DNA of 31,046 bases from Selenomonadaceae bacterium (GTDB taxonomy: Bacteria; Bacillota; Negativicutes; Selenomonadales; Selenomonadaceae): assembly GCA_017529085.1 (NCBI GenBank), contig JAFXOC010000586.1, positions 1-31,046 of the forward strand. The letters are read 5' to 3'. A program made the translations under genes and the position numbers. The notes below the pieces were generated by a model. The model ran no database searches, was not told the DNA's origin, and saw nothing but the letters and a program-made list of their open reading frames with translations. Below are positions 1,982-31,046 of this stretch, one piece after another; position 1 is the first letter of the stretch, and every line of letters starts with the position of its first letter.

Positions 1982-2035
1982 AAAATACAAAATAAACAAA
2001 TTTATCGAAACTATAAAAAAACCACAAAACTAACA

Positions 2036-2125
2036 ACAAACGCACCCGGGAGTCCAGAGGGCAATGCCCTTTGGCGGGGTCAAGGGGCAGCGCCCCTTGT
2101 AGGGTTTGGGGCGAAGCCCCAACAA
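2036..2125 (+). repeat. Repeat family A, copy 1 (three tandem GC-rich hairpins)
   Basis: acaaacgcacccgggagtccagagggc-aat-gccctttggcggggtcaaggggc-agc-gccccttgtagggtttggggc-gaa-gccccaacaa; homologous to 7275-7364 and 26634-26711. Confidence 0.92.
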
Positions 2126-2140
2126 GAGAAAGGAAATAAC

Positions 2141-3331
2141 ATGAACAATAGCGGAAGGTTTGGAGAGTTTGGCGGGCGGTACATACCGGAGACGCTGATG
2201 AATGCGGTTATAGAGTTAGAGGGAGCCTACTTCAAGTATAGGGAGGACGAGGGTTTTAGGAAAGAATTTGCGGAGCTTTTGGAGGATTACGGAGGCAGAC
2301 CGTCGAGACTTTATTTTGCAAGAAGGATGACCGAGGATTTGGGCGGCGCGAAAGTTTATTTGAAGCGGGAGGATTTGAACCATACCGGGGCGCATAAGAT
2401 AAACAACGTGCTTGGTCAGGCGTTACTTGCTAAGAAGATGGGGAAGACAAGACTTATTGCGGAGACCGGCGCGGGACAACACGGGGTTGCGACTGCGACG
2501 GCGGCGGCTCTGTTTGGTATGGAATGTGTTATTTATATGGGGGAGGAAGATACGAAGCGGCAGGCGTTGAATGTTTATCGAATGAAACTCTTGGGAGCAG
2601 AGGTTCACGCTGTTTCTGCGGGAACGGGAACGCTTAAGGACGCGGTGTCGGAAACTTTTCGGGAGTGGACGAGACGTATAGTCGATACGCATTATTGCTT
2701 GGGTTCTTGCATGGGACCTCATCCTTTTCCCACTATGGTGAGGGATTTTCAGTCGGTTATATCTAAGGAAATCAAGGAACAGATGTTGTTGAAGGAAGGC
2801 AGATTGCCGAACGCCGTTATAGCTTGCGTAGGCGGCGGATCTAACGCTATCGGCAGCTTTTATAATTTTATCGAGGATAAAGAAGTTGAATTAATCGGCT
2901 GCGAGGCGGCGGGTCGGGGGATTGATACTTTTGAGACGGCGGCGACGCTGAACGTGGGGAAGGTCGGAATTTTCCACGGCATGAAGTCTTATTTCTGCCA
3001 AGATAAATTCGGGCAGATAGCGCCCGTGTATTCGATTTCGGCGGGGTTGGATTATCCCGGGGTAGGCCCCGAACACGCGGATTTATTCAAAACGGGACGG
3101 GCTAAATATGTGGCGATTACGGACGAAGAAGCGGTGGAGGCTTTTGAATATCTGCCGAAGGTTGAAGGGATTATCCCCGCTATCGAATCGGCGCACGCAG
3201 TCGCTTACGCCATGAAAATCGCGCCTAACATGAGCAAAGATAAAATTATCGTTATAACAATATCGGGACGCGGCGACAAGGACTGCGCCGCTATAGCAAG
3301 GTTCAGGGAAGGAGTGGATATAGATGAATAG
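2141..3331 (+). CDS. trpB: Tryptophan synthase beta chain
   Basis: [26 protein letters not shown] (PLP lysine), [22 protein letters not shown]. Confidence 0.98.
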
Positions 3332-6935: not shown

Positions 6936-8156
6936 TCAACCTTCTCCTATCTTCTCCGCCAATCTTTCAAAATCCTTCACAAAATTTACAATACTTCTTT
7001 GATAAGTCCTCCCCGAAAAAGCTATATGCGGCAACGGTATAAAAGGCGTACTCCCCGCTATCGCCTGATACATAGGATCCGCCACAATCAAATCCGCCGA
7101 TTGAAATTTTTCCTTAAGCTCCTTTTCACCCTCGAAAACCTCGTCCCCTTCCCTCATCAACACCTTCTCCGTCGAAGTCGCCGCGACAACGGTAATCTTA
7201 TCCCCAATCTCCTCCTCAATCGCCGCCGCCAACGACGCTGCCACTATACTTTCATGTATCAGATAAATTCGTTTTTGTTGGGCTCCGCCCAAACCCGCCA
7301 AAGGGCGCTGCCCTCTGGACTCCCGCCAAAGGGCTTTGCCCTCTGGACTCCCGGGTGCGTTTGTTTGAGTTTCGGTGTATAAGATTGAAGTTTGGTTATG
7401 TTTTATAATTTTTAGTAGTTTTTCTTTTAAACGTCCCACGGGAAGTCCTACGATATAAGGCGTTCCCCACGCTTTTTCCATAGCTTTTGCGGCGGCTAAC
7501 CCTCCGTAACTTACTACCACGTTCATTTTCGCTTTACTTGCCTTAAAAAGTTCGTCTAAGTCGCTTCCCATTGCGAATTTTGCCACCACCGGAACGTCGT
7601 TTTCTTCAAAAAATTCCACAATCGCCTTATCCGTTCCGTTTATGGCAAAATCTAAAGGAGTCAGTCCCAAAATATTTACGCCGTCCGGTTTTTCTTCAAC
7701 TTTTGGAATTTTTTCTGTTATCATATCCGCCAATTTTTTTAGAGCAAGTGAAATTCCAATCGAATAATCCCGCATTGAATTTGTGGGAAGCGAAAAAGTA
7801 GGAATTTTCGTGTTCTTTTCGATAACTCTGGCAATTCCCCTTAAATCTATTCCAAGCATGGCGGGCATCTGCGCCGACAACAACGCGACAAAACGCGGCT
7901 TTTGCAAAAGAGCCGTTTCTGTCACCTCGTCTATAAATTTTCTGTCATTTCCCAAGATAGCGTCCTGTTCGGTAAGTCCCGAAATATATAAAAGAGTTTT
8001 AGAATCAAACCATCGAGGCTCGTCGTGCGTCGTATAAGTAGAATTGCACCCCGAAGGGTCGTGCACCACTATCATCCCGCCAAGCTCAAAAAGCGCGCTA
8101 ATCGCCCCGAACACATCCGCCGAATATGTGGATATTATCGAATTTACCTGCTTCAT
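6936..8156 (-). CDS. Nitrogenase component 1-like oxidoreductase subunit (NifK/BchB-like position)
   Basis: LFELGGMIVVHDPSGCNSTY, GVNILGLTP, A..NVVVSYGG.AAA..M...WGTPY and ADLIVADP motifs; a single Cys; carries an in-frame repeat-A insert. Confidence 0.78.
   Translation of the reverse strand: MKQVNSIISTYSADVFGAISALFELGGMIVVHDPSGCNSTYTTHDEPRWFDSKTLLYISGLTEQDAILGNDRKFIDEVTETALLQKPRFVALLSAQMPAMLGIDLRGIARVIEKNTKIPTFSLPTNSMRDYSIGISLALKKLADMITEKIPKVEEKPDGVNILGLTPLDFAINGTDKAIVEFFEENDVPVVAKFAMGSDLDELFKASKAKMNVVVSYGGLAAAKAMEKAWGTPYIVGLPVGRLKEKLLKIIKHNQTSILYTETQTNAPGSPEGKALWRESRGQRPLAGLGGAQQKRIYLIHESIVAASLAAAIEEEIGDKITVVAATSTEKVLMREGDEVFEGEKELKEKFQSADLIVADPMYQAIAGSTPFIPLPHIAFSGRTYQRSIVNFVKDFERLAEKIGEG
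7275..7364 (-). repeat. Repeat family A, copy 2, intragenic and in frame (90 bp)
   Basis: Minus strand acaaacgcacccgggagtccagagggc-aaa-gccctttggcgggagtccagagggc-agc-gccctttggcgggtttgggc-gga-gcccaacaa; the first module is duplicated. Confidence 0.92.
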
Positions 8157-9210: not shown

Positions 9211-9437
9211 AAAAGACCCTCCTCTAAGAGAAGGGTCACAGAGTGTAGACTTATTATTATTTATTCACGGAACTCTCCCCCCCCTACCCCCCCCTCTAGG
9301 AGGGGGCTTGGTTAGAGACAATTCAATATTTTGGCTCAAAAGCAGTAATCCGAGTGCCTCCCTCCTGGATGGAGGTGCCCGAAGGGTGGAAGGAGAGCCA
9401 TGAAGAGCACAATATTTATTGATTTGTCTACACTCTG
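9211..9437 (+). mobile_element. Repeat family B composite, MITE-like with 12-bp terminal inverted repeats
   Basis: cagagtgtagac (9239-9250) and gtctacactctg (9426-9437) are perfect inverted repeats enclosing cccctctaggagggg and gcctccc...ggaaggagagcc palindromes; an extra hairpin lies at 9211-9237. Confidence 0.7.
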
Positions 9438-9470
9438 AACCTTGAGGAATTAACCTCAAGGTTGTTCTTT
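9438..9470. terminator. Hairpin between convergent genes, possible terminator
   Basis: aaccttgagg / cctcaaggtt perfect 10-bp stem; T-rich tail on the + strand only. Confidence 0.5.
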
Positions 9471-9472
9471 TG

Positions 9473-12154
9473 TTAGCTCTTAGCCGTCAAGCCTGACCCG
9501 TTCCAGTTATAAGTCACATCGTCAAATTGCACCGTAATGGTGTTGCTGGAGGTTATGTCTTCCGCCGCGGATAATTTTACGGTTGCGCCGTTTGTAAAAG
9601 TTGCGGTAAATTCTTTCGACGTTCCCGTGAACGAAGCAATATCCGTGGTTTTCGTGTCTATGAATACCACTTTATCGCCTGCCGTGGCGTTTTGCAACAC
9701 ATCGTTGCCCATTTTATGACCTACGTAGTAAACGGTGTTTCCGTTGCCCGAGCCTACGATGGTATCGTTGGTTCCGTTGCTGAAACCTTCGTCAAGTCCG
9801 CCGCCGCCCCATACTTCGTCAAAATCCTTGCTTTTAGAGACTATAATAGTCTGGTCGAGATCGTTTGAACCAAGCACCGCGCCAACGTGACCCGCGCTTG
9901 CGTCAATCGTGCCCAAACCTTCCGAAATATACGGCGTTGCCCAGCCTAAGCCCTTTTGATTTCCTGCGACGCCGCTTTCTATAGAATCTGCAGAAGTGAA
10001 TATAAGACTTGTGCTTTTGCCTTGACCGATATGGAAATTCGCTTCCTTGACGAATTTCATATATTTGCCGCTGTCGCTCATGTCAACGCTTACAATACCG
10101 ATATTGCCGCCATAGTCGTAGATAAATTCGTTTTGAGCCTCTGTTCCCTCCAAGGTCAGACTTCCTTCGGACTCGGAGCCTATCATGACTTTGCCGCTTT
10201 CGGGCGTAATAAGCTTAAATGTGCTGTACGAAGTATCAACCGCTACGACATCGCTTCTACCCTTTTCGGCGCCGAAATCAAAATTTTGCGCGACATTATC
10301 GCCGCCGCCTTTATGAAGCGCAAAAGTGGTGTTCCTATACTTACCCGCAGAAACCAACGTATCGTTTAAGCCTGCATTGGTGCCGCCGTCCAATGTATCC
10401 CTGCCGCCGACAGCCGTAATTGTTTGCGGCGTCCAACCGGTCGCGGCTATGAGGCTGCCTTTGTTTTCGCCCACCTGTACCAAACCGCTTGAGGTTATTT
10501 GGTAGCATCTTGTATCTGCGGTATTGCCCTTTGCAGCGAGGTTTATGTAGTAATTGTTGGTGTTATAAGTGGAACTAATGCCGATACTCGGGAAATAAAT
10601 ACGGTCATCGTATACAAGCTCTGATGAGGAAACTTTAAATTTCGCAAGTTCATCGGCATCGAAACTTGAAACCACAAAAACGTCCGTATTGTTTTCAAGC
10701 GCGGAAGGCGCGCCGCTTCCCGTTTGAAATCCGAAATCCCAAATTCTTACGCTGCCTTCGGTATAGCCCGTAAAATCGAAAACATCGTTTCCGCTGCCGC
10801 CTGTAACGGAGGTCTCTTTTGTGCTTGTAGTGTTGTCAAGCTTAATATAATCGGCGTAAGCGGAGCCAACTACGGAAGCGCAACTGTTTCCCTGTACTTC
10901 GCCCACTATGTTAAGCGGCGCGTTATTAGCGTTTAGGTTTAACATAGTTTGATAAGAATTATACGCTTTTGCCCTAAAAGAGCTGCTTTCCTTTACAACA
11001 AGCATATCGTAACTGTCGGTAGTGTCAATAAATTTAAACGTTGCGTCGTCTTTAAGACTACCGATTTTAATATCGTCCGCAAAGGAACCGGAATCGTATA
11101 AAACTATCCCCGCGCCGTTGACGGTTGAAGTCGTTTCAAGTACCTTGCCGTCCTTGTCCAAGCTTAAATCTATTCTGTCTATGTCTATATATCTGCCGGT
11201 ACCGCCTTTAAACTTTACGTTTCCGCCTATACCCGCGGCTTTTATGGACTCATCGTTATTGTAAACGCCTAAATTTCCGCTTGAATAGCTTGCGGTAAAA
11301 GCGTACCAACTCGTCCGCGTCCCCGAAGAAAGTCGAACATAATCGCCGTTCTCGGATTCAACGGTAAGGTTTCCGCCGGTTATTCCGTCTTCTAAGCGCA
11401 ACTGGGTAGAAGTGCCGTCGTTTAACTTTATATTCCCACTGCCGCCTGACATCTCATCAATCTCAATGGTATTGCCTGTGCCGGATACAACGAAAGCGTC
11501 AAGCGAACCGCCCGATACGCTGTCGATTGAAAGTGTCAAATTAGAGCCTATGGAATTTTGAACGTAAAGTTTGCCGTCCGCCAAAAGATCAACTTCCGTA
11601 TCTGAACCGCTAGTGCCGACCACGCTTGCAACGCCGCCTGAAATGGTATTGATTGTACTGTGGGCGTTTTTACCCGATATTATAAGCGAAGCGTCGGAAA
11701 CTTCGCCGACCTTGTAATAATTGGAACTGTCGCGGTTACTTCCAAGCTCAACAGCTCCTTTTACGCTTGAAAGAGAAATAGCTACGTCTGCCCCTGTGTA
11801 AACCGTGCCTATACCGCTTGCGCCGGATAGTGTAAGACCATCGGAATTTCCCAAAATATCCACCGATCTTAAATATGTACCGCTTAATGCCGCAACGTTC
11901 TTTTCGCCGTCGTCTAAGCCACCGCCGACAAAAGTCACGCTTTTCGCGCCTCGTAGAGTGCTTACGCTAACTGAGCCCGTACCGTCAAAATAAAGAGTAT
12001 CGTTGCTGCCTTGAGAAAAATCAAGATACGCGCTGCCATAGTTCGGAGCGGTTTTTACGCTGCCGTCCGCCGCGTTAGTATAAGTCAAATTTGTTCCATC
12101 GGATTCAAATAAAAATTTATCGTTACCTGTGCCACCCGTAATCGTAATCGCCAA
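9473..12154 (-). CDS. Large Gly/Ser/Thr/Asp-rich RTX-like protein without Sec signal, probable type I secretion substrate
   Basis: GGTGNDKF, GGSGNDVF, GRDTLDGG, GGGDNV and MGNDVL nonapeptide-like motifs. Start reassigned to TTG at 12154, 9 nt after a GGGAGG RBS (893 aa). Confidence 0.65.
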   Translation of the reverse strand: MAITITGGTGNDKFLFESDGTNLTYTNAADGSVKTAPNYGSAYLDFSQGSNDTLYFDGTGSVSVSTLRGAKSVTFVGGGLDDGEKNVAALSGTYLRSVDILGNSDGLTLSGASGIGTVYTGADVAISLSSVKGAVELGSNRDSSNYYKVGEVSDASLIISGKNAHSTINTISGGVASVVGTSGSDTEVDLLADGKLYVQNSIGSNLTLSIDSVSGGSLDAFVVSGTGNTIEIDEMSGGSGNIKLNDGTSTQLRLEDGITGGNLTVESENGDYVRLSSGTRTSWYAFTASYSSGNLGVYNNDESIKAAGIGGNVKFKGGTGRYIDIDRIDLSLDKDGKVLETTSTVNGAGIVLYDSGSFADDIKIGSLKDDATFKFIDTTDSYDMLVVKESSSFRAKAYNSYQTMLNLNANNAPLNIVGEVQGNSCASVVGSAYADYIKLDNTTSTKETSVTGGSGNDVFDFTGYTEGSVRIWDFGFQTGSGAPSALENNTDVFVVSSFDADELAKFKVSSSELVYDDRIYFPSIGISSTYNTNNYYINLAAKGNTADTRCYQITSSGLVQVGENKGSLIAATGWTPQTITAVGGRDTLDGGTNAGLNDTLVSAGKYRNTTFALHKGGGDNVAQNFDFGAEKGRSDVVAVDTSYSTFKLITPESGKVMIGSESEGSLTLEGTEAQNEFIYDYGGNIGIVSVDMSDSGKYMKFVKEANFHIGQGKSTSLIFTSADSIESGVAGNQKGLGWATPYISEGLGTIDASAGHVGAVLGSNDLDQTIIVSKSKDFDEVWGGGGLDEGFSNGTNDTIVGSGNGNTVYYVGHKMGNDVLQNATAGDKVVFIDTKTTDIASFTGTSKEFTATFTNGATVKLSAAEDITSSNTITVQFDDVTYNWNGSGLTAKS

Positions 12155-12197
12155 AAAAATCGACCTCCCGAAAACAAATAAAAATAATGACATACCT

Positions 12198-12271: not shown

Positions 12272-12495
12272 TATTCACGGACTCTCCCCCCTACCCCCCT
12301 CTAGGAGGGGGGCTTGGTCAGATGAAATATAAAATTTTGGCTCAAAAGTAATAATCAGAGTGCCTCCCTCTTAGAGGGAGGGGGACCGCGAAGCGGTGGA
12401 AGGAGAGCCGTGAAGAGCACAATATTGGTTTATTTGTCTACAGTCTGATCCCTCCTCTTAGAGGAGGGACAGACGCAAAGCGGCAGGGAGGAGTT
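12272..12495 (+). repeat. Repeat family B composite, copy upstream of the RTX-like gene
   Basis: Colinear with 9264-9437 (attcacgg-actctcccccc...tttgtctacagtctg) but lacks the left TIR; followed by a further ccctcctcttagaggaggg...gggaggagtt unit. Confidence 0.85.
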
Positions 12496-22678: not shown

Positions 22679-22857
22679 GAGTGGGTCTTTTGAGAGTCGC
22701 AATTAAAAGACATTTGAAAAAACGCGCCTCTACGAGGCGAAAACTCCCCCCCCTACCCCCCTCTAGGAGGGGGGCTTTTAAGAGCCAAAACTTCAAAAGA
22801 ACGCAAAAAAGCCCTCCTCTTAGAGGAGGGACAGCCGCGAAGCGGCAGGGAGGAGTT
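22665..22857. repeat. Repeat family B, inverted doublet plus half unit overlapping the rsmI stop
   Basis: aactccccccctacccccctctaggaggggggc ... gccctcctcttagaggagggacagccgcgaagcggcagggaggagtt, near-identical to units at 12280-12313 and 12450-12495. Confidence 0.88.
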
Positions 22858-25211: not shown

Positions 25212-25374
25212 AAAGACGATGGAGAAAGCTGCGTGGCTTCCTAAAAATACGATGCGGTTCCAAGCGGCAGCGCATTGGTTCATGAAAAAAATAAAAAAAT
25301 AAAGGATTTAGTCCGTTATGTCAAGAATGTATATGGAAAGAAAAGTTTCGAGCCAACCATTGACGGAGGTTCTT

Positions 25375-26391
25375 ATGAAGAAATACGCAGCAATACGCGC
25401 GCTCTCCGTTTATCTGCCCGAAAGGGTAGAGACAAACGAGAGTTGGGACGCGCGATTTGTAGAAAAACTTGGAATATACGAGAGACATTTGGCAAAAGAC
25501 GATGAGACTTCAAGCGATTTTTGCGTCAGAGTTGCGGAAAAACTCTTTGCCGAATACAATATTGACCGCAAAGATATTGATTATCTCGTGGTCTGCGCCC
25601 AACATCCCGACTACCCGATGCCGCCCACTTCCTGCATTGTGCAGGATAAATTGGGACTTTCCATGAATACGGCGGCAATAGACGTAACCATGGGGTGTTC
25701 CGGCTATCTATACGGGCTTTCGGTGGTTAAAGGTTTGATTGAAGCTCAAATTGCCACAAACGTTCTCTTTGTAACAGCCACAGTCGGCACAAAATTCAGG
25801 AACGAAAAAGACAACATCATGCGTCCCCTCTTTGGCGACGGCGCAACCGCTACTTTAATCACCCCACAAGAATCAAACGAGCCTCTTTTACACTCCTTCG
25901 TCTTCGGCACAGACGGCTCTCGTTATGATAAACTATACATTCCTGCCGGCGGCAGTAAACATATGCGCAAAAATACGCCCGAAACAATAGAGACCGACTC
26001 GGACGGAAATATTCGCACAAATTACGAATGGCACATGGACGGCGCCGCTATCTCATACTTTACGCTTAGAGTCGTTCCCGCTATAGTGGAAGATGTTCTA
26101 AAAAAATCCGATCTGAAAAGAGAAGACATCGACTACTACATATTTCATCAAGCCAACCGTTTTATGATGGAGCACGTACAAAAAAAATGCCACCTTGAAA
26201 AGATGGCATTTTACAACGATATTACCAAAATCGGCAACACGGTATCAAGCTCAGTACCTTTCGGCATGGACATAGTTTTAAAGGAAACTCCCTCCGAAAG
26301 CCTAAAACGCGTCATGCTCGCAGGATTTGGCGTAGGTCTTTCATGGGCGGGCTGCATAGCGGATTTAACGCGGATGATGAAGAAAGTTTAA
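25375..26391 (+). CDS. 3-oxoacyl-ACP synthase III-like (FabH-like) condensing enzyme
   Basis: Cys (TMGCSGY), His (FHQAN) and Asn (GNTVSSS) triad, LFGDGA, GFGVGLSW. ATG 25375 follows GGAGG. Confidence 0.9.
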   Translation: MKKYAAIRALSVYLPERVETNESWDARFVEKLGIYERHLAKDDETSSDFCVRVAEKLFAEYNIDRKDIDYLVVCAQHPDYPMPPTSCIVQDKLGLSMNTAAIDVTMGCSGYLYGLSVVKGLIEAQIATNVLFVTATVGTKFRNEKDNIMRPLFGDGATATLITPQESNEPLLHSFVFGTDGSRYDKLYIPAGGSKHMRKNTPETIETDSDGNIRTNYEWHMDGAAISYFTLRVVPAIVEDVLKKSDLKREDIDYYIFHQANRFMMEHVQKKCHLEKMAFYNDITKIGNTVSSSVPFGMDIVLKETPSESLKRVMLAGFGVGLSWAGCIADLTRMMKKV

Positions 26392-26624
26392 ACGTCTCCT
26401 TCAACGCCTCTGCGCTTCAACAAATCCCGTATAGATTCGATACTCGTGAAATTCTGCGGCGTTAAATCCGTTCCCGCAAACTCTACGTTGTATTCCTCCT
26501 CAAGCCTTGCAAACAAATCCTGCATATCCATCGAATCTATAAGCCCGTCGCTTACAAAATCCTCGCTCTTTTCATAGTCGTTCTTAGGATTAAGCTCCTT
26601 TAATATCTCTATTATCTTCTTCAT
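26388..26624 (-). CDS. Acyl carrier protein
   Basis: 78 aa, acidic, GLIDSMD phosphopantetheine site and NF.SI..I tail. Start at 26624; the longer ORF start is repeat-derived. Confidence 0.85.
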   Translation of the reverse strand: MKKIIEILKELNPKNDYEKSEDFVSDGLIDSMDMQDLFARLEEEYNVEFAGTDLTPQNFTSIESIRDLLKRRGVEGDV

Positions 26625-26633
26625 ACTCTCTCC

Positions 26634-26711
26634 TGTTGGGGCTTTGCCCCAAACCCCGCAAGGGCGCCGCCCTTGACCCGCCAAAGGGCGTTCGCCCTCT
26701 GGACTCCCGGG
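26634..26711 (-). repeat. Repeat family A, copy 3
   Basis: Minus strand cccgggagtccagagggc-gaa-cgccctttggcgggtcaagggc-ggc-gcccttgcggggtttggggc-aaa-gccccaaca. Confidence 0.92.
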
Positions 26712-26748
26712 TAGGGGTGTTGTTGTTTAATCTTAATTCGTGGTTACG

Positions 26749-27987
26749 TTATTCTTCCGCTTTTTTTAAAGCATTATTTATCTTTTCCGCCATGCCTTTT
26801 ATCTTAGCAATCGGCACGGAGCAAACAGCAACCCTCACGCCTAATTTTAAAGGTACTGCGTAGATTAAATCTTCGTGCAAAATATCGCAGACCTTTCCGG
26901 GATCGTTCGCCGGCACCGACAAGAAAAATCCGCCCGTATACGGAAGCGCGACGAGTCCCGTTTCTTTTGCCTCTTTCATAAAGAGATCGCCTCTCGCCTG
27001 AATGAGCGTATGCGCTTCTTCCCTATCCTTTTCAAATGAAGCGTAAATTTCTTTATCGCTCTGTATACGAAGCAGAAGTTCCATCGCGCCGCGATTTATA
27101 TTGCTCCATGCGGCGCGGCTTGAATACTTCATTATATCGTTAAATTCATCAATAACGCTTTTGCTCGAACTTGCCGCGATTAACGCCCCTGTGCGTTGAC
27201 CGTAGAACGTATAGCCTTTAGACATACTGAAAGAAAAGAGCGCCAATATATTTTCGGGCAAGTCGCCGAATTTTTTCATAAACTTACGCACTTCGTTCTT
27301 TTCGCCCGCATAATCAATATAGGCTATATCCACGAGTATAGCGACTTTTTTCCCGTTTTTAGCGTAAGCTTTAAACAGGTCTGTAATCTTGTCCCAATCG
27401 GCTTCAGTCAACTGAAAACCCGTCGGATTATGCGCAGGAGTATTTAAAATCACCAAGAGTGATTCTTGGCTTTTATATATCTCTTCAACCTTATCCTTGA
27501 ACGAAGCGAAGTTAAAATTTCTGCTCTCGTCAAACAGTGTGAAATTCTCTAATTTTGCCCCGTGTTCATTGCAAATTACGTTATATGTGCCCCAATACCA
27601 ATCGGAAGTAAGGACTTTTTCGCCTATCTCGGAATAATTCATTATAGCGTGATGAATGGCGCCCGTACCGCCCGCCGTTGCAACAGCGGAAGTATAGGCG
27701 TTCGGTTTTTGCTCGAGAAACGTCAGATTTTGAACCGCGTTAAGATATTCGGGAATCCCCGAAATCGGCGCGTACGCCGCAATTTTTTCAATGGGCATCT
27801 CTTTATAAACCTTCTCCATCGTGGGAAGCGTTATAAGTTTCTCGTTATCGTCTAACATAACGCCGATAGTGGCGTTAGTCACCTTATCCGCGCCGTATTT
27901 TTCGGCAGCTTCTCTGCAAGCCGCCGCCGCCCCAAATATAACGTCGTTTAACTTCTTCCCCGCCGAATGCGTCGCCGCCATACTCAT
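26749..27987 (-). CDS. PLP-dependent class I/II aminotransferase
   Basis: NATIG, TAGGTGA, ILNTPAHNPTG, VDIAY and SMSKGYTFYGQRTG (PLP lysine). Start at 27987 after GAGG. Confidence 0.9.
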   Translation of the reverse strand: MSMAATHSAGKKLNDVIFGAAAACREAAEKYGADKVTNATIGVMLDDNEKLITLPTMEKVYKEMPIEKIAAYAPISGIPEYLNAVQNLTFLEQKPNAYTSAVATAGGTGAIHHAIMNYSEIGEKVLTSDWYWGTYNVICNEHGAKLENFTLFDESRNFNFASFKDKVEEIYKSQESLLVILNTPAHNPTGFQLTEADWDKITDLFKAYAKNGKKVAILVDIAYIDYAGEKNEVRKFMKKFGDLPENILALFSFSMSKGYTFYGQRTGALIAASSSKSVIDEFNDIMKYSSRAAWSNINRGAMELLLRIQSDKEIYASFEKDREEAHTLIQARGDLFMKEAKETGLVALPYTGGFFLSVPANDPGKVCDILHEDLIYAVPLKLGVRVAVCSVPIAKIKGMAEKINNALKKAEE

Positions 27988-28024
27988 CTCTAGCACCTCA
28001 TATATCTTTTTAAATTTGATTCTT

Positions 28025-28074
28025 TACTTTCTTTTCTCTTTCTTTTTTGTAAAAAAGAAAGAGAAAAGAAAGTA
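28025..28074. repeat. Repeat family D: perfect 24-bp polypyrimidine/polypurine inverted repeat
   Basis: tactttcttttctctttctttttt-gt-aaaaaagaaagagaaaagaaagta, followed by a further purine tract to ~28101. Confidence 0.85.
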
Positions 28075-28103
28075 ACAAAGAAAAGAGAAAGAAAAGAAAG
28101 AAT

Positions 28104-29342
28104 TTAATTCTTAGGGAAAAATTCATCGTGAACGGCGTTGACGGCTTCTTTGACGTGACCGCCTTTGATTAAGCAAGAGAGGCTTATTTCGGATGTGCTG
28201 ATAATTTCGATGTTTACGCCGGCTTTGGCGAGTGCGCCGAACATTCTGGCGGCGATGCCGGGGTTGCCGAGCATACCTGCGCCCACTATGGAAATTTTCG
28301 TGACGTTTTCTTCTATTAAGACGTTGGAAGCGTTAAGATCTCGGGCGACTGTTTCCATGACCTCTTTGGCTTTGGTTAAATCGTCGTTTGCAACCGTGAA
28401 TACCATGTCGGTGATGTTTTTCTCGATATTTCGCATACTTTGAACGATCATGTCAACATCAACGTTAGCTTTTGCGAGCGCGTCGAAGATCTTGTGAGCT
28501 ACGCCCGGCGTGTCCGATATGCCTAATACGGCGATTTTGGTGACGTTTTCATCGTGAGCGACGCCTCTTATGACAAAACTTTTTTCTTCGATAGATTCCA
28601 TTGAATAATCCCCCCGAATAATAGTTCCCGAAGTTTTAGTGAATGTAGAGCGCACATGAATGGGGATTTTAAAAATCTCGCCCATCTCAACGGAACGGGG
28701 CTGCATAACCCCCGCGCCAAGACGCGCCATCTCAAGCATTTCGCTGTATGTTATCTCTTTGATTTTTCTGGCGGACGGCACTATTCTGGGGTCTGCCGAA
28801 TACACGCCCTCAACGTCCGTGTATATTTCGCAAGAATCCGCCCCTAAAGCGCCGGCGAGCGCAACCGCGGAAGTATCCGAGCCGCCGCGGCCCAACGTTA
28901 CCGGATCGCCTAAATGGTTGGAACCTTGAAATCCCGCGACAACCACAATGTTGCCTTTGTTTAATTCTTCGTGCACGCGTTCGGGAGAAATATCTACAAT
29001 ACGCCCCTTTGTATACGCCGAATCGGTTTGCAGACCCACCATAGGACCCGTAAGGGATACTGCGGGATGTCCCAAAGTTTGAAACGCCATGGATAAAAGG
29101 GCTATAGAAATTTGTTCGCCTGTTGTGAGAAGCATATCCATTTCACGGGGAAATTTATATGGTTCGCCGTTTATGCCTTTAGCAAGGCTTATGAGTTCGT
29201 CTGTGGTATCTCCCATAGCGGATACCACCATAACTATTTTGTCGTTGCCTTTCTTTTCGTCTAAAATTCTTTTAGCCACGGACATTATTTTTTCCGTGGT
29301 CGCAACAGAACTTCCGCCAAATTTTTTTACGATAAGAGCCAT
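28104..29342 (-). CDS. lysC: Aspartate kinase
   Basis: IVKKFGGSSV, VVSAMGDTTD, TLGRGGSDTSA, YTDVEGVYSADP and two ACT domains. Start at ATG 29342. Confidence 0.96.
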   Translation of the reverse strand: MALIVKKFGGSSVATTEKIMSVAKRILDEKKGNDKIVMVVSAMGDTTDELISLAKGINGEPYKFPREMDMLLTTGEQISIALLSMAFQTLGHPAVSLTGPMVGLQTDSAYTKGRIVDISPERVHEELNKGNIVVVAGFQGSNHLGDPVTLGRGGSDTSAVALAGALGADSCEIYTDVEGVYSADPRIVPSARKIKEITYSEMLEMARLGAGVMQPRSVEMGEIFKIPIHVRSTFTKTSGTIIRGDYSMESIEEKSFVIRGVAHDENVTKIAVLGISDTPGVAHKIFDALAKANVDVDMIVQSMRNIEKNITDMVFTVANDDLTKAKEVMETVARDLNASNVLIEENVTKISIVGAGMLGNPGIAARMFGALAKAGVNIEIISTSEISLSCLIKGGHVKEAVNAVHDEFFPKN

Positions 29343-29456
29343 GCGCATCCTTCCTCGCTGTAAAAAATTCAAAACTATTTGAGATTATAACCTAATTTTA
29401 ACGCTTAGTCTATATAAATTATAATGAATACAAACGGAGCCTTTAAGGAAATTACG

Positions 29457-31046
29457 ATGAATCAAGAAATTTTTCACAAAGCGACTAAAATATTAAAGGA
29501 AATTTACGGAGAAAACGCGGAATTCCGCAATGGTCAATATGAAGCGATTGAGGCCGCGCTTACTCATAATCGTACGCTTATCGTTCAAAAAACCGGCTGG
29601 GGTAAGTCTTTGATATATTTTATCTCTGCAAAACTTGTAAAAGGGCTTACATTGATAATCAGCCCACTTTTGATATTAATGGAAACTCAGCAAAAATACG
29701 CTCAGAAATTAGGACTTGAGTGCTTAGTTCTAAACGGCAGGGTAAAAGGCGAAGCGAGATCAATACTTCTACAGAAGTTGGAAAAAGGTTTATGCGATAC
29801 GCTGATTACAACGCCTGAAACTCTTTTCGGCAAAGATTTAAAGCAAATTTTGCCAAAACTTGACATAGGTATGTTTGTGGTTGACGAATGCCATTGCATA
29901 TCCGATGGGGTCATGATTTTCGCTTGGAATACAGCCGCTTAAATCGTATAATAGCCAATTTACCGTCAAATACGCCGGCGCTTGGAACAACCGCTACCGC
30001 AAATAATCGCGTGATTGAGGATTTGCAGGAGCAATTCGGTGAAGACGTATTTACCTTAAAAGGTCCTCTTTTACGTGCCTCGCTTCATATACAAGTGCTG
30101 AAACAGGAAAGCGAAGCCGAGCGTTACGCATGGATTGTCAAAAATATTGATAAACTGCCGGGCAGCGGCATCATATATTGCTTGACGCGTCGGGATTGTC
30201 AGAGATTAGCGGATTTTTTAAATGAAAATAATATTAAAAGCCGGGCCTATTATTCTTCCGATGAGCTTGAAAAAGTCGGGACAAATGGTATGTCGCCCAA
30301 TAAAGAAACCGAAGAACTTTTCGGCGAGAATAAGATAAAAGTTGTTGTAGCCACGGTAAAATTAGGTATGGGATACGATAAGCCGGATATTGGTTTTGTC
30401 ATTCATTTTCAATGTCCTGCTTCACTGGTAGCGTATTATCAACAAATAGGTCGAGCCGGACGCAAAGATGGCGCGGAGGCGTATTGTTTTTTAATGGCTG
30501 GAGAGGAAGATGTGTCCATTCACGAATACTTTATTGAAAACGCTTTTCCGACTTATGAAGAGGAGATACAAATCGTTGAAATTTTAGACAAACATTCCGA
30601 CACGGGTTTATCGTTAAAAGGGCTTATGACATATTGCAATTTAAACGCCAAGGCGCTGAGCCGTTCCGTTATGTTTTTGACAAATCAAGACATTATATAT
30701 TACGAATATGGAAAGTATTATCGTTCCCAAAAACCGTATATTTATCAAGGCGATTATTATAAATCTGTGCGAAAGGCGAAAAGGCGGGAAATTAATGAAA
30801 TGCAACGCTTTAGCAAGACCAAAAGCTGTTACGGAAGGTATATAGCAAACGCTTTAAACGATTGTACGGCCAAAGATTGCGGCAAATGCGCAAATTGTTT
30901 GGAAAAAGATGTATTAAGCGGTATAGAATCGCCTGCCGAAGTTGAAATAAATGCGGTTCAAGAGCGGCTTAAAAGTATGTACATCAAGATAATGCCAAGG
31001 CGATATTGGCCAGAAACAGATATTCAATTTGACCCAACCGAGCTTA
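29457..31046 (+). pseudogene. RecQ-family helicase with a 1-nt frameshift near 29906; runs off the window end
   Basis: QKTGWGKS and VDECHCISD in one frame. After a missing T, (W)GHDFR, TTATAN, GIIYCLTR, VATVKLGMGYDKPD, YYQQIGRAGR and CGKCANC continue open to 31046. Confidence 0.8.

What the first reader, a model, noticed from the sequence alone, without database searches (positions are those of the whole stretch)
25750..26760. Skew from repeat A copy 3 crosses into a gene on the opposite strand
The minus-oriented repeat precedes the ACP gene, which is dominated by AAG/GAG codons. Beyond ACP, the 3' two-thirds of the plus-strand FabH-like gene shows the mirror bias: C- and A-ending codons (gac, aac, tac, cac, atc, ggc, tca, gca, aca) with few G endings, whereas its 5' third is mixed. 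The bias follows the DNA strand of the repeat and not the coding strand, which argues for mutation rather than translational selection.
Basis: partly seen in the sequence, partly recalled or inferred. Interest (0 to 1): 0.72.

Follow-up and report, generated by a model that had tools for sequence, protein, structure and literature searches.

The report
Hairpin repeats flanked by strand-specific G/C skew
The odd codon endings in this fatty-acid-synthase-like gene are one local example of a genome-wide pattern in a rumen bacterium: for up to about 1 kb beside intergenic hairpin repeats, the DNA strand running away from the repeat is rich in G and poor in C at silent sites whichever way the genes point, and I found no published description of this.

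Summary
The counts are real. ACP-like gene: third positions G29/C12, Lys AAG 6:0. FabH-like gene: G36/C34 in the 5' 144 codons, G29/C77 in the 3' 213.

Alone the gene is only marginal. Its change-point ranks 145 of 1231 genes.

Repeat A has at least 135 copies in this Selenomonadaceae MAG. Pooled, silent-site GC skew downstream of the repeat is +0.41 falling to +0.09 in co-oriented genes and -0.36 falling to -0.02 in opposed genes (gene-level p = 2e-22 and 2e-10). It fades by about 1 kb. A sister-species MAG shows the same, and so does an unrelated purine/pyrimidine palindrome family.

So the bias follows the repeat's strand, not the coding strand. It is not translational selection: tuf and fusA prefer C/T endings.

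"Mutation caused by this repeat" is not shown:
- The sister species lacks the repeat at this exact site, yet its ACP is as skewed.
- Ten filled/empty orthologous flanks have equal skew.
- Silent divergence near repeats is not raised.
- At four-fold sites the change is a pure C-to-G exchange.

I favour a strand-polar recombination or repair bias anchored at these sites; the mechanism is unproven.

Earlier follow-ups in this scan reported the same footprint in this genome and similar ones in other genomes.

The parts
25375..26391 (+). FabH-like (KAS III family) gene. The ORF opens at 25318; the likely start is ATG 25375, which matches the G001 orthologue.
   Evidence: Pfam ACP_syn_III (E 1.6e-16) and ACP_syn_III_C (E 6.4e-23). 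The orthologue in G001 is 92% identical in protein and 84% in DNA.
25750..26391 (+). C- and A-ending 3' two-thirds of the FabH-like gene. This strand runs towards the repeat.
   Evidence: Third positions G29 C77 A62 T45, GC3 skew -0.45. Four-fold sites G10:C38. By distance from the repeat: -0.11 (235-400 nt), -0.36, -0.46, -0.78 (700-850 nt), then +0.04.
26388..26624 (-). ACP-like carrier protein gene, G-ending codons. Its coding strand runs away from the repeat.
   Evidence: Pfam PP-binding (E 2e-4). Third positions G29 C12; AAG 6:0, GAG 6:4. Orthologues: G001 +0.45 with an empty site, G002 +0.18.
26626..26724 (-). Repeat A copy 3, a module of three G+C-rich hairpins. Its 'forward' (F) direction is the minus strand, pointing into ACP and then FabH.
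   Evidence: Repeat search. nhmmer finds 135 copies in the genome. DNA fold -28.3 kcal/mol, z = -3.9. The hairpins are kept across three species, with some compensatory changes.
26749..27996 (-). Class I/II aminotransferase gene on the weak (F-upstream) side of the repeat.
   Evidence: Pfam Aminotran_1_2. GC3 skew +0.12. Synteny with G001 is kept across the empty site.
28011..28090 (.). Family P purine/pyrimidine palindrome between the aminotransferase and aspartate kinase genes. This is a second repeat family with the same kind of footprint.
   Evidence: Inverted repeat I5. 133 sites in the genome. On the stronger side, pooled GC3 skew in the two 300-nt bins nearest the repeat is -0.37 and -0.24 in co-oriented genes and +0.34 and +0.14 in opposed genes. 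The adjacent aspartate kinase has GC3 skew -0.28.
2032..2132 (+). Repeat A copy 1, directly 5' of the gene starting at 2141.
   Evidence: The downstream gene 2141..3331 has GC3 skew +0.32.
7275..7372 (-). Repeat A copy 2, lying inside ORF 6936..8156.
   Evidence: That ORF has GC3 skew +0.42.

Best explanation
The G-ending ACP codons and the C-ending 3' part of the FabH-like gene are the local footprint of a DNA-level, strand-polar bias anchored at intergenic hairpin-repeat sites. Two unrelated families carry it: family A, a module of three G+C-rich hairpins, and family P, an A+T-rich purine/pyrimidine palindrome.

Shown:
- At hundreds of such sites in this genus, the strand that runs 5'->3' away from the site is enriched in G and depleted in C at silent positions for 0.3-1 kb.
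- This holds regardless of gene direction. Genes leaving the site are G3-rich and genes running into it are C3-rich.
- The footprint is old. It is shared by two species that differ at about 25% of third positions, and it persists at orthologous sites where the repeat is now missing.
- It is a base-identity bias. G is favoured and C disfavoured by about 1.45-fold each, and A and T are untouched at four-fold sites.
- There is no local excess of substitutions.

Inferred: the pattern fits a fixation-type bias better than ongoing hypermutation. The mechanism I think most likely is polar recombination or repair tracts that start at the hairpin sites. In these tracts the strand pointing into the site (the 3'-ended, invading strand) forms heteroduplex DNA. 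Mismatch correction then discriminates by base. G-containing mismatches (G/T, G/G) are recognised best and rejected, while C/C and C/A are tolerated. The inward strand therefore gains C and loses G. This step rests on the established mismatch specificity of MutS-type repair and was not tested here.
For: Polarity independent of gene direction: pooled GC3 skew downstream of 117 repeat A copies is +0.41/+0.24/+0.14/+0.09 per 300 nt in co-oriented genes and -0.36/-0.24/-0.16/-0.02 in opposed genes.

Gene level: 92% of 74 co-oriented genes are positive and 87.5% of 24 opposed genes are negative. p = 2e-22 and 2e-10.

Onset and decay: the skew starts abruptly at the repeat edge (third-position skew +0.57 in the first 100 nt) and decays. 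The same values appear at four-fold sites. Positions 1 and 2 shift slightly in the same direction.

Replication: G001 shows the same (44 copies), including a mirrored, weaker effect on the other side. Family P shows it too (133 sites).

Not expression: tuf GC3 skew is -0.37 and fusA -0.15, with T-rich endings.

No intrinsic gene gradient: genes without repeats have +0.049 at the 5' end and +0.043 at the 3' end.

Old and independent of occupancy: filled versus empty flanks have 0.226 versus 0.241. The copy-3 site is empty in G001, yet ACP is +0.45 and the next gene's first 100 codons are +0.22.

The repeats are conserved elements: orthologous copies are 90% identical, against about 75% identity at third positions in the flanks.

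Base-identity pattern at four-fold sites on the repeat's strand: G .307->.430, C .283->.179, A .158->.148, T .252->.243 in co-oriented genes, and the same in opposed genes.

No excess divergence: third-position divergence is 0.230 at 0-300 nt against 0.25-0.27 further out. G<->C differences at four-fold sites are 0.040 against 0.053.

The required genes are present: mutS and addA.

Three-species series for this gene: FabH 3' skew is -0.45 in G000 (repeat A beyond ACP), -0.32 in G001 (P palindrome adjacent) and -0.10 in G002 (neither).
Against: - No direct evidence of recombination or breaks at the repeats.
- No Chi-like site has been defined.
- In this gene the skew peaks 550-850 nt from the repeat instead of decaying from it.
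- The equal skew at empty sites fits 'the repeat is only a marker' just as well.
- Without an outgroup I could not tell an ongoing bias from a relic made before the two species split.
- The two MAGs are fragmented, so many sites (93 of 121 in G000) could not be resolved as shared or empty.
- The mismatch-specificity argument comes from knowledge of other bacteria, not from this organism.
Confidence: 0.45

Rival explanations
1. True strand-asymmetric mutagenesis. The hairpin is a recurrent nick or break site. Either the outward-running strand is repeatedly resynthesised by an error-prone polymerase (nick translation, or gap filling after resection), or one strand is repeatedly exposed and damaged. 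This adds G-gaining and C-losing mutations on the outward strand.
For: Polarity, abrupt onset at the repeat edge and about 1 kb decay resemble repair-tract lengths. The mirrored sign on the two sides resembles outward synthesis from a break. Positions 1 and 2 also shift. It is not codon selection.
Against: - Silent divergence is not raised near repeats (0.230 versus about 0.25), and G<->C differences are fewer. An added C->G flux should raise them.
- At four-fold sites A and T are unchanged, so excess A->G and C->T transitions alone do not fit.
- The polarity is opposite to cytosine loss from the resected 3' tail, as reported at human meiotic hotspots, where the strand pointing into the break loses C and A.
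- The filled genome shows no excess of G/T gains over the empty one: G/A 46:33 but T/C 15:37.
Confidence: 0.2
2. The repeats are markers, not causes. Some other property makes certain intergenic points into skew-switch points. Hairpin elements of several families insert or persist there preferentially, in an orientation set by the local strand asymmetry.
For: Empty orthologous sites are as skewed as filled ones. Two unrelated families carry the same footprint. Skew does not increase with a copy's divergence from the consensus. True presence/absence differences with clean empty sites show that the elements do move or get lost.
Against: - There is no candidate for the other property.
- Genes without repeats show no 5'-3' gradient at all.
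- Footprint strength depends on the repeat's orientation, strong on the F-downstream side and weak upstream.
- The repeats are old and conserved, and 26 of 36 resolved sites are shared.
- Copies present in only one species are not younger by nearest-neighbour identity.
Confidence: 0.12
3. Selection on a nucleic-acid property of the flanks. Examples: transcripts leaving the hairpin module must be G-rich and C-poor, or DNA near the hairpins must avoid pairing with them; R-loop or termination control is another possibility.
For: The base-identity pattern and the slightly reduced divergence are what weak selection predicts. The repeats are conserved and lie immediately 5' of ribosome-binding sites in the sense orientation in most cases.
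Against: - The range of up to 900 nt is far beyond local folding.
- Sense mRNAs are G-rich in some genes and C-rich in others, depending only on position relative to the repeat.
- A Rho-based reading (C-rich RNA as a loading site) lacks its factor. No rho above the cut-off was found in G000, G001, G002 or two complete genomes of the family.
- No promoter-like site lies at copy 3.
- The skew persists where the repeat is absent.
Confidence: 0.1
4. For this one gene the pattern is chance plus a family-typical gradient, unrelated to the repeat.
For: The change-point ranks 145 of 1231 genes. 12 of 17 FabH homologues in other genera also fall from 5' to 3', mean -0.12. The strongest skew is mid-gene, not next to the repeat.
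Against: - The 3' skew of -0.45 is below all 17 homologues from other genera (minimum -0.35, mean +0.01).
- It lies at the 0.8th percentile of repeat-free genes.
- It has the sign and reach predicted by the pooled footprint.
- The series G000 -0.45, G001 -0.32, G002 -0.10 tracks the presence of a hairpin repeat.
Confidence: 0.08

Closest known systems
Replication-associated GC skew of bacterial chromosomes (leading strand G>C, sign switch at the origin)
   Same: G exceeds C on the strand running 5'->3' away from a fixed point. The sign is mirrored on the two sides. It acts on silent sites regardless of gene direction.
   Different: The scale is 0.3-1 kb around hundreds of sites instead of megabases around one origin. 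Local amplitude is much larger (third-position skew up to +0.57) in a genome whose mean GC3 skew is only +0.03. There is no A/T component at four-fold sites.
Strand-asymmetric mutagenesis flanking human meiotic double-strand-break hotspots (Hinch et al. 2023, PMC7615360)
   Same: Mirror-image strand asymmetry over 1-2 kb centred on a defined site, attributed to strand-specific steps of break repair. Some classes, including C>G, have off-centre peaks at 700-800 bp. That resembles the 550-850 nt peak in this gene.
   Different: The polarity is opposite. There the single strand pointing into the break loses C and A; here the strand pointing into the repeat is C-rich and G-poor. There the mutation rate is raised; here divergence is not.
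GC skew at gene ends linked to transcription and R-loops (human CpG-island promoters, PMC3787257; unicellular fungi, PMC3315797)
   Same: Kilobase-scale GC skew anchored at gene ends, with opposite signs at the 5' and 3' ends in fungi.
   Different: Those skews follow the transcribed strand. Here the sign is set by position relative to the repeat, genes without repeats have no gradient, and highly expressed genes are not G3-rich.
REP / BIME / REPIN elements with their RAYT (Y1 HUH) transposase
   Same: Short intergenic hairpin repeats in more than 100 copies. Some occur as inverted pairs. Empty sites in a relative are precise.
   Different: No Y1 transposase (PF01797) was found in any of the three genomes of the genus. 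I found no paper on a flanking skew.
Chi-stimulated polar recombination combined with the mismatch specificity of MutS/Hex repair (pneumococcal low- and high-efficiency markers). This comparison rests on my own knowledge, not on a tool result.
   Same: A one-sided, orientation-dependent, distance-decaying tract next to a short DNA signal. The strand with its 3' end at the signal is the one assimilated. Repair treats G/T and G/G differently from C/C.
   Different: No Chi sequence is known for this group. Two unrelated repeat families act alike, which suggests structure rather than sequence. A lasting compositional footprint of this process has not been described.

Membership tests
KAS III / FabH-type condensing enzyme (the plus-strand gene) | ACP_syn_III and ACP_syn_III_C domains | tested here: met
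   Pfam E 1.6e-16 and 6.4e-23, both above the gathering scores.
KAS III / FabH-type condensing enzyme (the plus-strand gene) | Cys-His-Asn catalytic triad | tested here: inconclusive
   The motifs MGCSG, FHQAN and IGNTVSSS are visible in the translation. They were not aligned to a solved structure.
REP/REPIN-RAYT system | Many copies of a short intergenic palindromic repeat | tested here: met
   135 nhmmer hits in G000. 64 full copies in 0.93 Mb of G001. Folds into three hairpins.
REP/REPIN-RAYT system | A RAYT (Y1 HUH, PF01797) gene in the genome | tested here: not met
   No match in G000, G001 or G002 (85-91% complete). The control search rings in 6 of 14 reference genomes.
Replication-type GC skew | Skew constant over a whole replichore, with a switch only at origin and terminus | tested here: not met
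   The skew returns to baseline 0.9-1.2 kb from each repeat. The window alone has several sign changes.
Transcription-associated strand asymmetry | Sign follows the transcribed strand and grows with expression | tested here: not met
   Coding strands are G3-rich or C3-rich depending on position relative to the repeat. tuf is -0.37 and fusA -0.15. No promoter-like site at copy 3. No RNA data are available.
Break-resection single-strand damage footprint (as at meiotic hotspots) | The strand pointing into the site loses C, and the local substitution rate is raised | tested here: not met
   The inward strand is C-rich. Third-position divergence is 0.230 near repeats against about 0.25 further out. 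Polarity of the human case read.
Translational codon selection | Bias towards the codons preferred in highly expressed genes, on the coding strand | tested here: not met
   tuf and fusA prefer C/T endings (AT3 skew -0.55 and -0.26). The FabH 3' part is C/A-rich (AT3 +0.16), and ACP is G-rich.

The most novel reading that the evidence does not exclude
Intergenic hairpin repeats in this genus are start points of polar recombination or repair tracts. Base-specific mismatch correction in the resulting heteroduplex amounts to a strand-asymmetric form of biased gene conversion. It writes a lasting G/C skew into up to 1 kb of flanking genes, in the opposite polarity to the resection-damage footprints known from eukaryotic break hotspots.
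Probability: 0.2. Interest if true: 0.85.

Novelty: new variant of a known kind. Interest (0 to 1): 0.74.

Why it matters
If hairpin repeats imprint kilobase-scale strand asymmetry on neighbouring genes, several things follow.
- A sizeable part of within-gene codon-usage variation in such genomes has nothing to do with translation. Here 53% of the strongest intragenic codon shifts abut a repeat.
- Codon-based inferences, such as expression level, horizontal transfer or selection on silent sites, would be misled near these elements.
- The footprint would be a sequence-only read-out of where, and with which polarity, a DNA transaction (break, nick or strand invasion) recurs in uncultured bacteria. 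That would make the long-debated function of REP-like repeats testable.
- The opposite polarity to the eukaryotic break-hotspot signature, and the absence of extra divergence, point to a process other than simple damage of resected DNA.

Tried and rejected
- **Single-gene significance tests**: marginal, and the null is contaminated by the effect itself.
- **Replication-strand reading:** GC3 and AT3 skews are uncorrelated across genes (r = -0.005), and signs alternate within this contig.
- **Rfam scan of the window:** only a tRNA, no family for the repeat.
- **Promoter/terminator scan around copy 3:** no promoter-like site, and one weak terminator-like site at chance level.
- **Y1 transposase search:** none in three genomes.
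- **Rho-based selection idea:** rho not found above the cut-off in five genomes of the family, two of them complete.
- **Age proxies:**
  - Bit score to the family model versus skew gave no clear trend (Spearman 0.09, p = 0.36).
  - Nearest-neighbour identity is high for old shared copies too, so it is not an age measure. Eight of 45 near-identical pairs share flanks, meaning duplicate loci.
- **Filled versus empty substitution asymmetry** (10 flanks): no excess of G/T gains in the filled genome, only a GC-ward excess (G/A 46:33, C/T 37:15).
  - My first 'G001-only' class was mostly unassembled G000 sites at contig ends. I replaced it with strict two-sided empty sites.
- **FabH G000 versus G001 codon comparison:** C/T 20:12, underpowered.
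- **Polarising with G002:** too distant for silent sites (59% protein identity for FabH), so not attempted.
- **Literature:** four full-text searches found no description of repeat-anchored local skew in bacteria.
Full report
**What is there**

The window is a whole 31-kb contig (C220) of a 2.79-Mb, 670-contig MAG with 43% G+C. Its nearest named relative is a Selenomonadaceae MAG from water-deer rumen.

The layout of the region is as follows.
- metG and tatD (+) are followed by a FabH-like KAS III gene, 25375..26391 (+).
- A convergent ACP-like gene lies at 26388..26624 (-).
- Repeat A copy 3, 26626..26724, abuts the ACP ribosome-binding site.
- An aminotransferase (26749..27996, -) follows.
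- A purine/pyrimidine palindrome lies at 28011..28090.
- Aspartate kinase (28104..29372, -) follows.

**The observation**

- ACP uses AAG 6:0 and GAG 6:4. Its third positions are G29 C12. Genome usage is 33% AAG and 30% GAG.
- In the FabH-like gene the 5' 144 codons have G36 C34 A39 T35 at third positions. The 3' 213 codons have G29 C77 A62 T45, giving GC3 skew +0.03 versus -0.45.
- The same holds at four-fold sites (G16:C18 versus G10:C38) and at two-fold sites.

Taken alone the contrast is unremarkable.
- The best change-point ranks 145 of 1231 genes.
- It is in the top 6.7% against 596 repeat-free genes.
- The 3' segment's skew itself is at about the 1st percentile.

Seventeen FabH homologues from other genera also tend to fall from 5' to 3'. 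The mean change is -0.12, and 12 of 17 decline. None reaches -0.45 in the 3' part; the minimum is -0.35 and the mean is +0.01.

**The decisive test was to pool all copies**

Repeat A is a roughly 90-nt module of three G+C-rich hairpins with 135 nhmmer hits in the genome.

I define its forward direction F as the one that points into the gene whose ribosome-binding site it abuts. For copy 3, F is the minus strand.

Over 117 full copies, third-position GC skew downstream of the repeat per 300-nt bin is:

| Genes | 0-300 | 300-600 | 600-900 | 900-1200 |
|---|---|---|---|---|
| Co-oriented | +0.41 | +0.24 | +0.14 | +0.09 |
| Opposed | -0.36 | -0.24 | -0.16 | -0.02 |

Further points:
- On the repeat's own strand the third-position skew jumps from about -0.05 upstream to +0.57 in the first 100 nt. 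It decays to baseline by 0.9-1.2 kb. Four-fold sites behave identically.
- At gene level, 92% of 74 co-oriented genes are positive and 87.5% of 24 opposed genes are negative. All opposed ORFs score as genuine sense frames.
- 5' ends behind a repeat average +0.36 against +0.05 (p = 2e-22). 3' ends that a repeat points into average -0.38 against +0.04 (p = 2e-10, or 5e-10 without this gene).
- Genes with no repeat have no 5'-3' gradient at all (+0.049 and +0.043). The weak genome-wide gradient I first saw therefore comes from the repeat-flanked genes.
- The background used for the single-gene test is contaminated. 53% of the top-5% change-point genes abut an A or P copy, against 18% overall.

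**Independence from assembly and from one repeat family**

- Repeat A occurs only in the three genomes of this genus, among 41 relatives searched.
- In 284 kb of the sister species G001 (44 copies) the footprint is the same: +0.40/+0.19/+0.07 in co-oriented and -0.37/-0.21/-0.10 in opposed genes.
- G001 also shows a weaker mirrored effect on the upstream side. On both sides, then, the strand running away from the repeat is G-rich.
- G002 shows it weakly, with few copies.
- An unrelated A+T-rich purine/pyrimidine palindrome, family P (133 sites, one at 28011..28090), shows the same outward-G rule on both sides. On its stronger side the values are -0.37/-0.24 for co-oriented and +0.34/+0.14 for opposed genes.

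**This locus in three species**

- In G001 the FabH orthologue (84% DNA identity) sits in a different context. It has no ACP and no repeat A, but its 3' end abuts two P palindromes on their strong side. Its 3' skew is -0.32.
- In G002 the FabH-ACP pair is kept with neither repeat. The 3' skew there is -0.10 and ACP is +0.18.
- The G001 orthologue of the ACP-aminotransferase-aspartate kinase segment has a clean empty site exactly where copy 3 lies in the window.
- G001 ACP is nevertheless G21/C8 (+0.45). The next co-oriented gene is +0.22 in its first 100 codons and negative afterwards.

**Does the repeat cause the skew?**

I compared 0.93 Mb of G001 with G000.
- Of the resolvable sites, 26 G001 copies are shared.
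- Eight are filled in G001 and cleanly empty in G000 (stop codon, ribosome-binding site and start codon with nothing between).
- Two are filled only in G000.
- The ten filled/empty flanks have the same all-position GC skew in both genomes in the first 300 nt: 0.226 filled and 0.241 empty.
- The filled genome has no excess of G or T gains. It shows only a GC-ward excess.
- Orthologous repeat copies are 90% identical. Non-orthologous copies are 83-85% identical, and third positions in the flanks about 75%.
- The repeats are therefore old, conserved elements and not a recent burst.
- Nearest-neighbour identity and model score are not usable age proxies.
- Present occupancy is thus not needed for the footprint. 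The empty sites could be losses that keep an old footprint, or the sites could be special for another reason.

**Signature**

Four-fold sites within 300 nt, read on the repeat's strand:

| Base | Far | Near |
|---|---|---|
| G | .307 | .430 |
| C | .283 | .179 |
| A | .158 | .148 |
| T | .252 | .243 |

- Opposed genes give the same picture (G .306 -> .407, C .286 -> .178).
- This is a pure G-for-C exchange. It fits G being favoured and C disfavoured by about 1.45-fold each.
- At two-fold sites the same preference appears through transitions.
- Positions 1 and 2 move slightly the same way.
- Third-position divergence between the two species is 0.230 at 0-300 nt against 0.25-0.27 further away.
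- G<->C differences at four-fold sites are 0.040 against 0.053.
- There is therefore no local hypermutation. An added C->G flux should have raised those differences.
- Highly expressed genes are C/T-ending (tuf -0.37, fusA -0.15, rpoB +0.06). Expression or translation is not the driver.
- No promoter-like site lies at copy 3.
- No Y1 transposase was found.
- mutS and addA are present.
- rho was not found in five genomes of the family.

**Mechanism (inference)**

The polarity is the key constraint. The strand that leaves the site is G-rich, and the strand that points into it is C-rich.

- This is the reverse of cytosine loss from the 3' tail left by resection. At human meiotic hotspots the strand pointing into the break loses C and A.
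- Outward resynthesis with G-biased errors, or outward transcription, would give the right sign. The first predicts extra divergence, which is not seen. The second predicts a link to expression and a promoter, which are not seen.
- A fixation-type bias fits best. The inward, 3'-ended strand would be the one assimilated in polar recombination or repair tracts that start at the hairpins.
- Mismatch repair recognises G-containing mismatches (G/T, G/G) better than C/C and C/A. This is established for MutS/Hex systems and is my own knowledge.
- Under those two conditions, the inward strand gains C and loses G. A and T are hardly touched, and the substitution rate does not rise.
- I hold this at modest confidence. 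Mutation bias, a marker-only role for the repeats, selection on strand composition, and chance for this single gene remain open.

**Known or new**

Four full-text searches found replication, transcription/R-loop and meiotic-hotspot asymmetries, but no description of kilobase-scale skew anchored at bacterial hairpin repeats.

Earlier follow-ups in this scan reported the same footprint in this genome. They reported similar ones in other genomes, some with the opposite polarity. I re-derived the effect independently before reading them. This report adds:
- the empty-site test,
- the conservation of the repeats,
- the base signature,
- the divergence test,
- the expression and rho controls.

**Verdict**

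- This gene alone is weak evidence.
- The strand-following bias is a genuine genus-wide phenomenon.
- Translational selection is excluded.
- 'Mutation from this repeat copy' is not established, and several results argue against a simple version of it.

Noticed in passing
window 29424-31045: A RecQ-like helicase is split into two overlapping ORFs: 29424..29942 (DEAD/ResIII domains) and 29888..31045 (Helicase_C, RecQ_Zn_bind). This could be a frameshift, a pseudogene or an assembly error.
   Followed up: no
window 28011-28090 and 133 sites genome-wide: A purine/pyrimidine palindrome family (P) has a 24-bp stem plus a one-sided purine tail. It carries its own outward-G footprint, stronger on the side away from the tail. 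The aspartate kinase gene next to it is C3-rich (-0.28).
   Followed up: yes
L059:6841-7069 and L059:8146-8327 (G001), versus G000 C350:2074 and C350:3150-3158: In G001, repeat A occurs as inverted pairs flanking an A+T-rich spacer of 40-60 nt. They are inserted exactly between a stop codon and the next gene's ribosome-binding site. G000 has clean empty sites there.
   Followed up: partly
filled/empty flanks, 0-300 nt (10 sites in G000/G001): The genome that holds the repeat has more G and more C than the empty one: G/A 46:33 and C/T 37:15 on the repeat's strand. This is a GC-ward asymmetry without any change in skew.
   Followed up: no
L021 (G001 C38) versus window 25336-26391: The FabH-like gene has moved between the two species. 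Only the gene itself aligns (84%) and both flanks differ. The FabH-ACP convergent pair is kept in G002 (L003) and in another genus (L005).
   Followed up: partly
window 9264-9441, 12272-12451, 22743-22857: A third repeat family, with C-run / G-run hairpins, has three copies in the window. Two of them bracket the 906-aa ORF 9473..12193, which is itself C3-rich (-0.33).
   Followed up: no
G000 contig ends (e.g. C184:1-81, C164:3-82, C524:80-163): Many repeat A copies lie at contig ends, so the repeats probably cause much of the fragmentation of this MAG. This made 93 of 121 G000 sites unresolvable as shared or empty.
   Followed up: partly
G000, G001, G002, G010, G014: No rho gene above the family cut-off was found in five Selenomonadaceae genomes, two of them complete single contigs. 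The 72-74-bit hits in the three genomes of this genus (32-33 bits in the two complete genomes) are probably another RecA-fold ATPase.
   Followed up: no
G000 C613:1898-1983 and C141:16359-16440: Repeat A copies also flank the translation-factor genes fusA and tuf. Those genes keep C/T-ending codons, so strong codon selection appears to override the footprint.
   Followed up: no
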